Shown here one piece after another: positions 37,341 to 39,648 of a stretch of DNA of 45,230 bases. Source of the DNA: a virus (Duplodnaviria; Heunggongvirae; Uroviricota; Caudoviricetes). The stretch's first letter is position 1. Each line of letters starts with the position of its first letter. The stretch is from IMG/VR virus record IMGVR_UViG_2718218139_000011. One strand, given 5' to 3'. Made by a program: the position numbers and the translations under genes. The notes under the pieces are model-generated. The model did no database searches. It was given only the letters and a program-made list of their open reading frames with translations, and was not told where the DNA came from.

Positions 37341-37632
37341 TGGTTGCCTCCTGAAAAATAACTGCATGCCCCAGCTTCTCCGCCAGTGCCAGTTCTGCCT
37401 TAGCACCTGCTGACCGCTGCCAGCCTTTCAGCATGTAAATCGCATCCACACAACGAATCATTGCCATGCAAATATCCATGTAGTGCGGCTGTGTCAGCCC
37501 GTCCGAAAGTACTGCCGGGTTTAAGACGGTATACCCTTCCCGTTTCAGTTCCTCTTCCGCCTCGTGGAACGCCTCACGGTTGAAATTTTTATACCCGGTC
37601 ATCGGACCAGCGATATAAACCCTCACCCTCAC
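37327..37632 (-). CDS. DUF4406-type protein (nucleoside 2-deoxyribosyltransferase-like fold)
   Basis: 101 aa MRVRVYIAGPMTGYKNFNREAFHEAEEEL; GTG start overlapping upstream stop with AGGAGG RBS. Confidence 0.65.
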   Translation of the reverse strand: MRVRVYIAGPMTGYKNFNREAFHEAEEELKREGYTVLNPAVLSDGLTQPHYMDICMAMIRCVDAIYMLKGWQRSAGAKAELALAEKLGHAVIFQEATSEQH

Positions 37633-38051
37633 GCCATCACCTCCTGAAAATTACCCTGATAAAACGCCAGCACACGCTGCATAACCTTGCTTTTCCGGCA
37701 CTCGCGACAGATTATGTTCTGACGCCTGTTGTAGCGGCGTATTTCTCCGTCTGGTAATGACCAGATAAGGTCAGGATCAACCACAACCGGTTTCTTCAGT
37801 TTTGCCCTCGATAATTTTTTGCGGGCGTTTTGCCAGTCCTTACGAGCCTGTTCAGATGGGAATAACCCGTAACCAGAGTTGTATACATCGCCGCTGGCAA
37901 CCAGCTCTCTTGCGAGAACGCTCATCAGATATCTTGTTGCCCCAGTTTTAGCTTCCAGTTGTCGTAACGTCTCACGCCCACTCTGGCGTACGAGTTCAAC
38001 AACCTGCCCTTTAATTTTTTCTCGCTCTTCCTGTGTAAATACTTTTGCCAC
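37629..38051 (-). CDS. Hypothetical basic protein
   Basis: 140 aa; GTG start with AGGAGG RBS; C-terminal CRECRK. Confidence 0.5.
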   Translation of the reverse strand: MAKVFTQEEREKIKGQVVELVRQSGRETLRQLEAKTGATRYLMSVLARELVASGDVYNSGYGLFPSEQARKDWQNARKKLSRAKLKKPVVVDPDLIWSLPDGEIRRYNRRQNIICRECRKSKVMQRVLAFYQGNFQEVMA

Positions 38052-38091
38052 AAGTCCTCCTGAAAATTACCTCATGACCTGAAATAAACAC

Positions 38092-38772
38092 TTACCCCCT
38101 GAAGCCCGGCGGAATTTCGGTATCCGGTTCAGAAATATGATTCACACAACGCTGGTTGTTCGTGCCGCTTACCGGGAGCAACCAGGGGTTTTCAAAATTC
38201 CGGTCCGGTCCAAAAAAGGTCGTCGCTCGCTGAACAAATTCCGTTCCCGTTTTCCCGGTAGCCGCCAGATATCTTGCGTAACGCCTCACGCCATCCAGCA
38301 TGGCCTCTGGTGGCACCCCCTCGCGTAATCTGGCCTTCCAGGCACTGAAAGCGGATTTCTTCGGGTTTGCTCCGGCACGCAACGGGTACTCCCGCCAGAC
38401 CTGTTCGAACACATCCGGATAATCCACTCGTCCCACAGGCTGCCCGGTGTTTTCCGGGACTACCCGATCGGCTTCCCGCTGAATGGCGGAATCGGCTTCA
38501 GGCTGCTGCAGTTGGTGTGATTGCTCCGGCCTTCCGGTCATCACCTGCTGCACAGCGCCCGAATCGGCTTTCAGCGCATACGCTGAATCGGCTTCCGGTG
38601 TCGTGCCTGCTGGCTGACCAGGATTGACGGTCTGAACATCCCCTGCCTGGTCCATGGCGTTTTTTACGCCATGGACCATAGTGTTTTGATCTTCTTGATC
38701 TGTATCTTTATCTGTATCTTTATCTGTCGTGACTCGTCGTGACATTTCGTGACGCGCCGTGACAATCGCCAT
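38092..38772 (-). CDS. Putative replication protein, C-terminal part (start uncertain)
   Basis: 226-aa ORF; its first 30 codons are read through the iteron/AT-rich DNA so the true start may be the internal MVHGVKNAMDQ; conserved-looking C-terminus. Confidence 0.5.
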   Translation of the reverse strand: MAIVTARHEMSRRVTTDKDTDKDTDQEDQNTMVHGVKNAMDQAGDVQTVNPGQPAGTTPEADSAYALKADSGAVQQVMTGRPEQSHQLQQPEADSAIQREADRVVPENTGQPVGRVDYPDVFEQVWREYPLRAGANPKKSAFSAWKARLREGVPPEAMLDGVRRYARYLAATGKTGTEFVQRATTFFGPDRNFENPWLLPVSGTNNQRCVNHISEPDTEIPPGFRG

Positions 38773-39157
38773 TTTGTTCCCGCTTTCTTTCCCTCTCTCG
38801 CTGCGCCCTCTTGCGCTCTGCAGGAGATTTTGCGGTTTGCGAAATATTGCCGTTGTCCTCTTTAAGCACCTGGCGTTTTTCCCATCCAGTGATTAAATCA
38901 CCATCAAGTACCCGCCCCTGCATCGTCTGCAAAATTGAATCAATTACCTCTTCTGTCACGTCGAGCGCACTTGCCAAATCTTCTGTCGTGACATCAATGT
39001 GACCTCGCGTGACATTTCGTGACGCGCTCACCAGGAGGTGGATATACACTGCCATCACTGTTGCAATTGGCTGCCCTGACACCCTGGCAATTGTTCGCCA
39101 CTTAGGGTCATTTGGCATGTCATGCCATAATCTGAGCCAAGCGTTAGCCATACTCAC
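38720..39157 (-). CDS. Putative replication initiator, N-terminal DNA-binding part
   Basis: 145-aa ORF directly downstream of cII-like gene; contains one iteron cluster and ends in the second. Confidence 0.5.
   Translation of the reverse strand: MSMANAWLRLWHDMPNDPKWRTIARVSGQPIATVMAVYIHLLVSASRNVTRGHIDVTTEDLASALDVTEEVIDSILQTMQGRVLDGDLITGWEKRQVLKEDNGNISQTAKSPAERKRAQRERERKREQNGDCHGASRNVTTSHDR
38728..38763. repeat. Four direct CGTGAC repeats at exact 10-bp spacing, beside an AT-rich GATC-containing tract
   Basis: Direct reading: CGTGAC at 38728, 38738, 38748, 38758; TATCTTTATCTG x2 and two GATC sites at 38682..38727. Confidence 0.8.
38989..39023. repeat. Second cluster of four GTGAC repeats at 10-bp spacing
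   Basis: GTGAC at 38989, 38999, 39009, 39019; 20-bp segment CGTGACATTTCGTGACGCGC identical to the first cluster; inverted copy GTCACG at 38955. Confidence 0.8.
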
Positions 39158-39222
39158 CTCTTCTGATACCGAATCTTTTTACTCACGAGTTGCCGGAAGC
39201 GATTCGATATGGCTATTGTCAG

Positions 39223-39648
39223 TCAATGTACTGCCACAGCATTTCCTGCCGGGCCACCACGGTTCATCTGATTGAAACCGGCGATTGCCACTGCGACAAA
39301 ATCATCAGCGTCTCTCACCAATCGCTCCCGCGTCTCCACCAGCTCCCGAAAATAAGCTGAACTGTGGCTGCGCATTCTGGCCACCAGCAAAGGTGGCATT
39401 GCCTTTTCGATCGCTGGTAACAACGCCTGAATTTTTTCAACTGCATCAGGGGTGTCTTTCTCTACCCAGCGGAAAATTTTCTGGGTATTGCGAGCCAAGG
39501 CTTCCGGATGGCTGTCGTCATACAGTTCAGGAAACGTCATACCCAACTCAAAATAAGCCTGGGTTATTCCAGCTGCTGGAACTTTTTCGCCATCAGGACG
39601 CGCCCAGGCATTCATCGCCATGCGGATGTGTTCATGCTTGATTTTCAT
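39223..39648 (-). CDS. CII-like regulator (YdaT-like)
   Basis: Start at internal MKIKHEH; position after cro-like gene; recalled similarity to Rac YdaT. Confidence 0.6.
   Translation of the reverse strand: MKIKHEHIRMAMNAWARPDGEKVPAAGITQAYFELGMTFPELYDDSHPEALARNTQKIFRWVEKDTPDAVEKIQALLPAIEKAMPPLLVARMRSHSSAYFRELVETRERLVRDADDFVAVAIAGFNQMNRGGPAGNAVAVH

What the first reader, a model, noticed from the sequence alone, without database searches (positions are those of the whole stretch)
38680..39030. Two clusters of 10-bp-phased CGTGAC repeats with an AT-rich GATC tract inside the replication genes
Four CGTGAC repeats at exactly 10-bp spacing occur twice about 260 bp apart, and a 20-bp segment is identical between clusters. 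The 10-bp period cannot be a codon repeat, so the DNA sequence itself is under selection, consistent with initiator binding sites of an origin in the initiator gene as in lambda ori. The second cluster sits exactly where two replication ORFs overlap in different frames, so the gene may be frameshifted or the annotation needs a later start.
Basis: seen in the sequence. Interest (0 to 1): 0.65.

Follow-up and report, generated by a model that had tools for sequence, protein, structure and literature searches.

The report
Prophage replication origin inside its initiator gene
The phased CGTGAC repeats are very probably the initiator-binding sites of a prophage replication origin lying inside the initiator's own gene, as in phage lambda, and in this strain one 11-bp repeat unit is missing, which breaks the gene in two.

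Summary
The cluster at 38728-38763 has four exact CGTGAC copies at 10-bp steps. The cluster at 38987-39023 has three exact copies plus one TGTGAC, at 11/10/10 bp. A 20-mer is shared, and a 48-bp tract of 29% GC with two GATC sites adjoins the first cluster.

The window is E. coli CFSAN004176, in a lambdoid prophage of the dicB/ydfC type. The two overlapping ORFs are one frameshifted gene, annotated "phage replisome organizer". Intact alleles encode 356 aa and carry five repeat units; this strain lacks one 11-bp unit.

Across 56 homologous loci from many Proteobacteria the layout is conserved: cluster A in the winged-helix coding part, cluster B in the linker, a purine-rich AT tract, then often a hairpin. 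Synonymous sites inside the hexamers are frozen. The hexamer changes with the initiator subfamily (GTCACG, GTAACG, GTGACG, CGAACG, ACTACG).

Lactococcal phages r1t and Tuc2009 show the same layout in their rep genes; the Tuc2009 record says that gene contains the origin.

Verdict: a lambda-style origin inside the initiator gene, here inactivated by loss of one repeat unit. It is a new member of a known kind. Binding and replication are inferred, not shown.

The parts
38092..39151 (-). Frameshifted gene for the prophage replication initiator ('phage replisome organizer'); 356 aa when intact
   Evidence: RefSeq marks it as a frameshifted pseudogene in NZ_CP014583.1. Intact 1071-bp alleles occur in strain Ecol_224 and phage Tritos. 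It matches PHROG 3729 'replication initiation protein' at E 4e-257.
38720..39151 (-). Upstream ORF fragment (143 aa from ATG 39151): winged-helix N-domain plus linker, ending out of frame
38092..38772 (-). Downstream ORF fragment (226 aa as listed): linker and C-terminal domain, ending in a tail like the DnaT C-terminus (SEPDTEIPPGFRG)
   Evidence: The last 25 aa match the extreme C-terminus of DnaT (6aep, E 0.0056; NCBIfam PRK02854 positions 156-179).
38987..39023 (-). Repeat cluster A: GTCACG, GTCACG, GTCACa, GTCACG on the gene strand at 10/10/11-bp steps; encodes residues 43-56 (ASRNVTRGHIDVT), the end of a helix and the next loop of the winged-helix domain
   Evidence: Conserved at gene offsets +128 to +159 in about 27 loci from many genera. 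Synonymous sites are frozen.
38955..38960 (+). Single inverted copy of the hexamer, about 30 bp downstream of cluster A in gene orientation
   Evidence: An exact inverted copy is present at offset +191 in about half of the GTCACG-type loci, and codon V65 is GTG in 20 of 20 sequences.
38728..38763 (-). Repeat cluster B: four GTCACG at 10-bp steps here, five (10/10/11/10) in intact alleles; lies in the inter-domain linker
   Evidence: All 80 IMG/VR E. coli-type loci have five units. Other genera have 2-7 units.
38743..38753 (-). Junction of the 11-bp deletion (one unit, CACATGTCACG or an equivalent register, is missing); the exact breakpoint is ambiguous within the repeat
   Evidence: Alignment A1 and pairwise alignment. 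The five-unit form occurs at 99% identity or more in 1595 complete E. coli records; the window's form occurs at that level in 2.
38680..38727 (-). AT-rich, purine-rich (on the gene strand) tract (GATAAAGATACA)n with two GATC sites; the predicted DNA unwinding element
   Evidence: 29% GC. Three 12-bp repeats. The same (A)GATAAAGATA-type tract directly follows cluster B across the family and follows the phased repeats in r1t and Tuc2009.
38648..38678 (.). Palindrome with a 13-bp stem and 5-nt loop, next to the AT tract
   Evidence: I2. As single-stranded DNA it folds at -17 kcal/mol, z -8.5. Hairpins are enriched within 110 bp after the last repeat across the family (p = 1e-6). The perfect form is unique to this strain.

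Best explanation
The region is the replication origin of a lambdoid prophage, and it lies inside the gene of the origin-binding initiator.

Read along the gene (minus strand), the parts are:
- Cluster A: four hexamers one helical turn apart, inside the part that encodes the winged-helix domain.
- About 220 bp of spacer.
- Cluster B: five hexamers in intact alleles, in the inter-domain linker.
- A 48-bp AT-rich tract that abuts cluster B directly.
- A hairpin-forming palindrome.

Inferred mechanism. Winged-helix N-domains of the 356-aa initiator bind the GTCACG cores as monomers along one face of the helix. The spacing pattern 10/10/11 averages about 10.3 bp. The bound proteins oligomerise and bend or wrap the DNA, possibly bridging clusters A and B, and melt the adjacent AT tract. 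The C-terminal domain then brings in the helicase-loading machinery.

This C-terminal domain is exchanged between relatives to match the downstream gene: a lambda-P-like loader, a DnaC-like loader, or a primase-helicase. In this prophage no loader gene follows, and the C-domain ends in the DnaT C-terminal tail motif.

In this strain one 11-bp repeat unit has been lost. Slippage or recombination between the tandem repeats is the likely cause. The loss removes one binding site and shifts the reading frame, splitting the initiator into an N-domain fragment and a C-domain fragment. The prophage should no longer be able to start its own replication.

Shown here: the repeats, their DNA-level conservation, their co-variation with the N-domain, the conserved AT tract and hairpin, the predicted fold, and the frameshift. 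Inferred: binding, unwinding, helicase recruitment and replication.
For: Beyond chance: this is the only phased hexamer run in 45 kb, with 0.02 expected.

Gene context: it follows cI, cro and ydaT, the usual position of lambdoid replication genes. Nearly all homologs are one ORF spanning both clusters.

Family-wide architecture in 56 loci: two clusters at about +120 to +165 and +340 to +450. Step sizes are 10 bp (149 cases), 11 bp (37) and 21 bp (12). The flanking 5 kb holds 0-1 copies.

Synonymous sites are frozen inside the hexamers only.

The hexamer changes in concert in both clusters with the N-domain subfamily: GTCACG, GTAACG, GTGACG, CGAACG, ACTACG. One such change is the synonymous switch GTC to GTA (Val) between Erwinia and Enterobacter/Pantoea relatives.

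The downstream partner genes differ between relatives, so the N-domain is the only constant partner of the repeats.

An AT-rich tract of 15-35% GC follows cluster B in genes of 50-68% GC. Hairpins are enriched after it.

The N-domain is predicted to be a winged helix.

The same layout occurs in r1t ORF11: four GGAACC at 11-bp steps, then AGATAAGAAT repeats. It also occurs in Tuc2009 rep, whose GenBank record says the gene contains the origin.

PMC8965321 states that the TP901-1 and Tuc2009 replisome organizers bind direct repeats inside their own genes and that these serve as the origin. Lambda and SPP1 have repeats plus an AT-rich unwinding element inside the initiator gene.

Frameshift.
Against: There is no experimental evidence for this protein family. 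No binding, unwinding or replication assay was found in the literature searches.

The N-domain matches Phage_rep_org_N only below threshold (E 0.0016-0.12), so homology to the characterised lactococcal proteins is not established by sequence.

Neither r1t nor Tuc2009 shows an equivalent of cluster A, so its role is unexplained.

The AT tract is only moderately AT-rich (29% GC) and it also encodes a low-complexity acidic linker (DKDTDKDTDQEDQ).

The 11-bp deletion rests on one assembly; the reads were not examined.
Confidence: 0.8

Rival explanations
1. The repeats are regulatory binding sites rather than an origin. The initiator or another phage protein would bind them to autoregulate or block transcription through the replication operon, with replication starting elsewhere.
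For: Two clusters about 230-260 bp apart inside a transcribed gene would suit looping-type repression. Cluster A has no counterpart in r1t or Tuc2009. No function has been tested.
Against: Cluster B always abuts an AT-rich repeat tract and often a hairpin, which is the signature of an origin rather than an operator. The layout matches rep-gene origins described for lactococcal phages. No copy of the hexamer lies in the cI-cro control region.
Confidence: 0.08
2. The repeats form a contingency (phase-variation) switch. Because the units are 10 or 11 bp, gain or loss of one unit turns the initiator gene off or on.
For: Unit lengths are not multiples of three. Two independent one-unit losses exist: 11 bp in this strain and 10 bp in 22F46 and at least three other genomes. 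An in-frame 21-bp (two-unit) expansion exists in cluster A of E. albertii and O157:H7 relatives.
Against: Length variants are rare. 1595 complete-genome records carry the five-unit form, against a handful of frameshifted ones, and 80 of 80 IMG/VR loci have five units. Five units is too few for frequent slippage. The hexamer conservation and its co-variation with the protein are not explained.
Confidence: 0.03
3. The periodicity is a by-product of a repeated peptide motif or codon bias. Selection would be on the protein only.
For: The same peptide, ASRNVT, is encoded in both clusters in the same frame.
Against: The hexamer is read in three frames. Synonymous positions inside the hexamers are fixed in 91-100% of sequences, while other invariant residues vary freely (p = 1.5e-5). 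All copies switch together through a synonymous change, GTC to GTA, in a sister subfamily. The linker protein sequence is otherwise unconserved.
Confidence: 0.01
4. The 11-bp deletion, and therefore the two-ORF layout, is an assembly or consensus error in the CFSAN004176 genome. The real gene would be intact.
For: The deletion form is essentially unique to this record (99% identity or more in 2 records against 1595 for the intact form). Tandem repeats are error-prone in assembly.
Against: Exactly one repeat unit is missing, as expected from replication slippage. A different unit (10 bp) is missing in at least four other independent complete genomes. Long-read errors are usually 1-2-base indels (general knowledge).
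Confidence: 0.1

Closest known systems
Lactococcal P335-group replisome organizers and their in-gene origins (Tuc2009 Rep2009/orf16; r1t ORF11)
   Same: Short repeats lie one helical turn apart at about +315 to +375 of the rep gene, at the end of the N-terminal DNA-binding part. A purine-rich, AT-rich repeat tract follows at once: r1t has four GGAACC at 11 bp and then three AGATAAGAATAGATT; Tuc2009 has CAACCAAATG at 11 bp and then AGGATAG repeats. The Tuc2009 record says the gene contains the origin. PMC8965321 says these proteins bind direct repeats within their own genes. From memory, not held in the library: Zuniga et al. 2002 (J Virol 76:10234) showed the r1t protein binding hexamer repeats in its gene.
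   Different: Hosts are Gram-positive and the hexamers are unrelated. Sequence similarity is below threshold. No second upstream cluster like cluster A was seen. The C-terminal domains differ (Phg_2220_C in r1t).
Phage lambda O protein and ori-lambda
   Same: The origin lies inside the initiator gene, with repeats followed by an AT-rich unwinding region (PMC6022878). The N-terminal half binds the origin and the C-terminal half contacts the helicase loader. Repeat sequence and N-domain co-vary among lambdoid phages (established knowledge). Small deletions in ori-lambda are classic replication-defective mutations.
   Different: Lambda has four 18-bp inverted-repeat sites, each bound by an O dimer, in one cluster. 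Here there are asymmetric 6-bp cores at 10-11-bp steps in two clusters. There is no Pfam Phage_rep_O match. No P-type loader gene follows in this prophage.
Bacillus phage SPP1 gp38 and oriL
   Same: A replisome organizer binds direct repeats inside its own gene, next to an AT-rich unwinding element. A second set of sites lies elsewhere (oriR) (PMC6316719).
   Different: The two SPP1 origins are about 13 kb apart, not 230 bp. A loader (gp39) and a helicase (gp40) are encoded alongside. No sequence similarity was detected.
E. coli DnaT (primosomal protein I)
   Same: The last 21-25 residues (…SEPDxxIPPGFRG) are nearly identical to the DnaT C-terminus. An O157:H7 paralog with the same N-domain carries a full DnaT DNA-binding domain (PF17948, E 3e-17).
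   Different: Only the tail matches in the window's protein (18.9 bits against a cutoff of 201). DnaT has no sequence-specific origin-binding domain.

Membership tests
Repeat-plus-unwinding-element origin inside a phage initiator gene (lambda, SPP1, Tuc2009 kind) | Several direct repeats within the initiator's own coding sequence | tested here: met
   4+4 copies here and 4+5 in intact alleles; conserved in about 50 homologous loci.
Repeat-plus-unwinding-element origin inside a phage initiator gene (lambda, SPP1, Tuc2009 kind) | AT-rich unwinding element directly beside the repeats | tested here: met
   48 bp at 29% GC abuts cluster B. The same tract occurs family-wide, at 15-35% GC in genes of 50-68% GC. 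Actual unwinding was not tested.
Repeat-plus-unwinding-element origin inside a phage initiator gene (lambda, SPP1, Tuc2009 kind) | Repeat sequence co-varies with the initiator's DNA-binding domain | tested here: met
   Five hexamer types track N-domain subfamilies, and both clusters change in concert. Downstream genes vary independently.
Repeat-plus-unwinding-element origin inside a phage initiator gene (lambda, SPP1, Tuc2009 kind) | Origin sits between an N-terminal DNA-binding domain and a C-terminal recruitment domain | tested here: met
   Winged-helix model for residues 1-95. Cluster B lies at residues about 130-145. C-domains are swapped among relatives that share the N-domain.
Repeat-plus-unwinding-element origin inside a phage initiator gene (lambda, SPP1, Tuc2009 kind) | Initiator binds the repeats, and the fragment supports initiator-dependent replication | not testable with these tools
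   Needs gel-shift or footprinting and a plasmid replication assay. No such data were found for this family.
Phage_rep_org_N (PF09681 / TIGR01714) replisome organizers | Profile match above the curated cutoff | tested here: inconclusive
   The match covers the whole profile (1-119 of 119) but scores 12.8-18.6 bits against cutoffs of 23.3 and 49.8, with E 0.0016-0.12. RefSeq nevertheless names the protein 'phage replisome organizer'.
Lambda O family (Pfam Phage_rep_O) | Sequence match to the O N-terminal domain, and 18-19-bp dyad-symmetric repeat sites | tested here: not met
   No Pfam match at E up to 10. The repeats are asymmetric 6-bp cores at 10-11-bp steps. The lambda sites are described in PMC6022878.
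DnaT (primosomal protein I) | Full-length match to the DnaT equivalog model | tested here: not met
   Only model positions 156-179 match, at 16-19 bits against a cutoff of 201. PDB hits are confined to the last 21-25 residues.
Phase-variable contingency locus | Frequent repeat-number polymorphism within populations | tested here: not met
   The five-unit form is in 1595 complete-genome records and 80 of 80 IMG/VR loci. Frameshifting variants are in only a handful.

The most novel reading that the evidence does not exclude
The origin is bipartite and the initiator needs no phage-encoded loader. Initiator oligomers would bridge cluster A, which lies in the DNA that encodes the initiator's own winged-helix loop, and cluster B, looping about 220 bp of DNA. 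The DnaT-like C-terminal tail would engage the host restart primosome or DnaB-DnaC directly, so that no phage helicase loader is required. A corollary: the truncated 143-aa N-domain fragment made in this strain could still occupy the repeats and interfere with replication of related superinfecting phages, much as cloned origin and organizer do in the lactococcal 'phage-encoded resistance' phenotype.
Probability: 0.15. Interest if true: 0.6.

Novelty: new member of a known kind. Interest (0 to 1): 0.4.

Why it matters
The analysis assigns a probable origin and initiator to a replication module found in about 2000 of 5426 complete E. coli genomes. The initiator family has about 4500 sequence clusters at 50% identity, and no experimental work on it was found in the literature searches made here.

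The family offers a natural data set for how a winged-helix initiator and its binding sites change specificity together: five hexamer types, each changed in concert in 6-9 copies.

It is also a clear case of a DNA signal constraining the protein that it encodes. The hexamer is read in three frames and is tolerated only in a loop and a linker.

For genome annotation, it explains recurrent frameshifted 'replisome organizer' pseudogenes as losses of one repeat unit, a simple route by which prophages become unable to replicate.

Tried and rejected
Pfam on the two ORFs separately and on the intact protein gave no significant family.

Sequence search of solved structures with the N-domain profile found only low-complexity noise.

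Literature searches for this family's origin, for GTCACG repeats and for DnaT-tailed organizers found no description of this family's origin. The r1t paper (PMC136552) is not held. The preprimosome paper says nothing about the DnaT tail.

No DnaA box with one mismatch or fewer lies in 37900-39400.

The promoter and terminator scan found nothing above shuffle expectation. The palindrome scores as a terminator-like site on the antisense strand.

Shigella Stx phage 75/02 gp15 shares only the C-domain and has no GTCACG repeats, so it cannot be used to align the repeats. It has its own repeat pairs instead.

TP901-1 rep is a different DnaD-like type without phased hexamers.

My coordinates for folding the hairpins of L008, L024 and L050 cut them off, so those three results are uninformative.

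A protein-repeat explanation and a phase-variation explanation were considered and rejected.

Full report
**What is in the sequence**

On the + strand, CGTGAC starts at 38728, 38738, 38748 and 38758, exactly 10 bp apart. It also starts at 38987, 39008 and 39018, with a one-mismatch copy (TGTGAC) at 38998, so that cluster is spaced 11/10/10. One inverted copy lies at 38955-38960.

The 20-mer CGTGACATTTCGTGACGCGC occurs at 38738 and 39008 and nowhere else.

Next to the first cluster, 38680-38727 is 29% GC against 52.5% for the window. It is built of three 12-bp repeats and holds GATC at 38688 and 38697. A perfect palindrome with a 13-bp stem lies at 38648-38678.

This is the only run in the 45-kb window of three or more copies of one hexamer at 10/11-bp steps. 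Markov simulations expect 0.02 such runs, and none of four copies appeared in 300 simulations.

**Where it lies**

The window is 100% identical to the E. coli CFSAN004176 chromosome. The region is the early-right operon of a lambdoid prophage of the dicB/ydfC type, whose genes in order are:
- a cI-like repressor, 39966-40604 (+);
- a cro-like gene, 39632-39874 (-), as annotated in RefSeq;
- a ydaT-family gene, 39223-39648 (-), as annotated in RefSeq;
- the gene in question, 38092-39151 (-);
- a DUF977 gene, 37629-38051 (-).

RefSeq annotates 38092-39151 as "phage replisome organizer, frameshifted".

**The two ORFs are one broken gene**

In strain Ecol_224 and in phage Tritos the same DNA is a single 1071-bp ORF of 356 aa. 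It matches PHROG 3729, "replication initiation protein", at E 4e-257.

The alignment shows that intact alleles carry five GTCACG units (gene strand) in the linker cluster, spaced 10/10/11/10. The window lacks exactly one 11-bp unit. That shifts the frame and produces the 143-aa and 226-aa fragments.

Strain 22F46 and at least three other genomes lack a different, 10-bp unit and are also frameshifted.

Among 5426 complete E. coli genomes, 2035 carry the region. 1595 records have the five-unit form at 99% identity or more, and the window's form reaches that level in only 2 records. All 80 E. coli-type loci from IMG/VR have five units and an intact ORF.

**Selection on the DNA**

A scan of one genome per species gave 56 homologous loci from Enterobacterales, Pseudomonas, Bordetella, Chromobacterium, Acidovorax, sphingomonads and others. 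Nearly all are single ORFs of 230-430 aa.

About 27 of them (57-99% amino-acid identity) keep GTCACG in two clusters:
- at gene offsets +116 to +159, with 3-4 copies;
- at +376 to +450, with 2-5 copies.

About half of them also have an exact inverted copy at +191. The 5 kb of flanking DNA contains 0-1 copies. Across the family the step between neighbouring copies is 10 bp in 149 cases, 11 bp in 37 and 21 bp in 12.

The hexamer is read in all three frames (Val-Thr, x-His, Ser-Arg). This produces the peptide motifs ASRNVTRGH..VT in the N-domain and VTxCHxxSRxVT in the linker.

In 23 non-redundant genes, the eight codons whose third base lies inside a hexamer use a single codon in 91-100% of sequences. 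Twenty-five other invariant residues use their commonest codon in 30-91% of sequences (Mann-Whitney p = 1.5e-5). Within E. coli alleles, substitutions fall mostly in the spacers between hexamers. The DNA sequence itself is therefore under selection.

**Co-variation with the protein**

More distant homologs keep the two-cluster layout but use other hexamers: CGAACG (15 loci), GTAACG (4), GTGACG (1) and ACTACG (2), changed in both clusters together.

Erwinia (GTCACG) and Enterobacter/Pantoea (GTAACG) relatives encode the same Val-Thr residues but use a different Val codon in every copy.

The genes downstream of the initiator differ among relatives with the same hexamer:
- DUF977 only, in this prophage;
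- a DnaC-like loader, in Aeromonas phage pAEv1818;
- a primase-helicase, in Pseudomonas phage P7869;
- a lambda-P-like loader, in an O157:H7 prophage.

**Origin-like anatomy**

In nearly every locus with a linker cluster, the last repeat is followed at once by a purine-rich, AT-rich tract of the form (A)GATAAAGATA(A/C)AGA, repeated. It reaches 15-35% GC in genes of 50-68% GC.

Within 110 bp after that, hairpin-forming inverted repeats are enriched relative to other parts of the same genes (p = 1e-6).

The order is therefore repeats, then AT tract, then hairpin, located at the junction between a DNA-binding domain and exchangeable C-terminal domains. This is the arrangement of ori-lambda inside gene O (PMC6022878) and of SPP1 oriL inside gene 38 (PMC6316719).

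**Closest characterised relatives**

The N-domain matches Phage_rep_org_N over the full profile, but below threshold.

I read the genes of two lactococcal members directly:
- r1t ORF11 has four GGAACC at 11-bp steps at +315 to +348, the only four copies in 6 kb. Three AGATAAGAATAGATT repeats follow at once.
- Tuc2009 rep has CAACCAAATG at 11-bp steps, followed by AGGATAG repeats. Its GenBank entry says the gene contains the origin of replication.

PMC8965321 states that the TP901-1 and Tuc2009 organizers bind direct repeats within their own genes and that these regions are the origins. From memory, since the paper is not held, Zuniga et al. 2002 showed the r1t protein binding hexamer repeats in its own gene.

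The window's feature has the same design as these origins, in a proteobacterial family. Neither lactococcal gene shows an equivalent of cluster A.

**The C-terminal half**

The last 25 residues are nearly identical to the extreme C-terminus of E. coli DnaT. An O157:H7 paralog with the same N-domain has a full DnaT DNA-binding domain and is followed by a P-like loader. This prophage encodes no loader next to the initiator. How the helicase is recruited is therefore open; use of host DnaB-DnaC or of the restart primosome is a guess.

**Conclusion and limits**

The best explanation (confidence about 0.8) is a replication origin embedded in its initiator gene, inactivated here by loss of one 11-bp repeat unit. 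Binding, unwinding and replication are all inferred, and no experiment on this family was found.

The main rivals are a regulatory binding array, a phase-variation switch, a protein-level repeat, and an assembly error for the deletion. Their evidence is set out in the Rival explanations section.

The family is large: 4509 clusters at 50% identity with E of 0.001 or better. The module is present in more than a third of complete E. coli genomes.

The principle is textbook, so this is a new member of a known kind. The points of moderate interest are the two-cluster layout, the concerted changes of hexamer, and the three-frame overlap with the coding sequence.

Noticed in passing
window 38648-38678: The palindrome is perfect (13-bp stem) only in this strain. 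76 of 81 related loci read ...CGCCACGAACC where the window reads ...CGCCATGGACC. The two substitutions, at 38654 and 38652, are exactly those that complete the inverted repeat, which looks like a template-switch (quasi-palindrome correction) mutation. As single-stranded DNA the hairpin folds at -17 kcal/mol against -8.7 for the common allele. On the + strand it scores as a terminator-like site antisense to the gene.
   Followed up: partly
L008, L024, L050, L056, about 20-45 bp after the last repeat: Hairpins after the AT tract in Aquitalea, Chromobacterium, Rhodoblastus and an unnamed Pseudomonadota genome share a loop sequence (CTCACTACGTTCGG or a close variant) while their stems differ. This suggests a conserved structured element, possibly a single-strand priming or assembly signal.
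   Followed up: no
L005:2075-2105 and 2330-2360 (Shigella phage 75/02 Stx gp15): This initiator has a different N-domain but the same C-domain. It carries two AAGGGGCTTC-type repeats 11 bp apart in its N-domain coding part. Two inverted copies lie about 230 bp downstream, just before a (GAACAG)n tract. This is an analogous two-cluster design with unrelated repeats.
   Followed up: partly
L065:312-1367 (E. coli O157:H7 strain 3-5-1): A paralogous initiator has the same N-domain but cluster A is expanded by 21 bp (two units, in frame). It has a full DnaT DNA-binding domain (PF17948) as C-domain and is followed by a lambda-P-like loader. This shows modular exchange downstream of the origin.
   Followed up: partly
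window 38092-38654 versus 38655-39151: Compared with the Ecol_224 allele, all 9 substitutions lie downstream of the frameshift and none lies in the 497 nt upstream of it. This could be relaxed constraint after the gene broke, or simply a mosaic C-terminal allele.
   Followed up: no
window 38467-38502 and 38563-38598: A 36-nt direct repeat (75% identical, 96 bp apart) in the C-terminal linker encodes a repeated PEADSA peptide. Its function is unknown.
   Followed up: no
protein hits (for example P0042, P0060, P0073, P0099, P0101): Some metagenomic proteins that match the N-domain at 56-72% identity carry precomputed HNH endonuclease domains (PF01844, PF14279).
   Followed up: no
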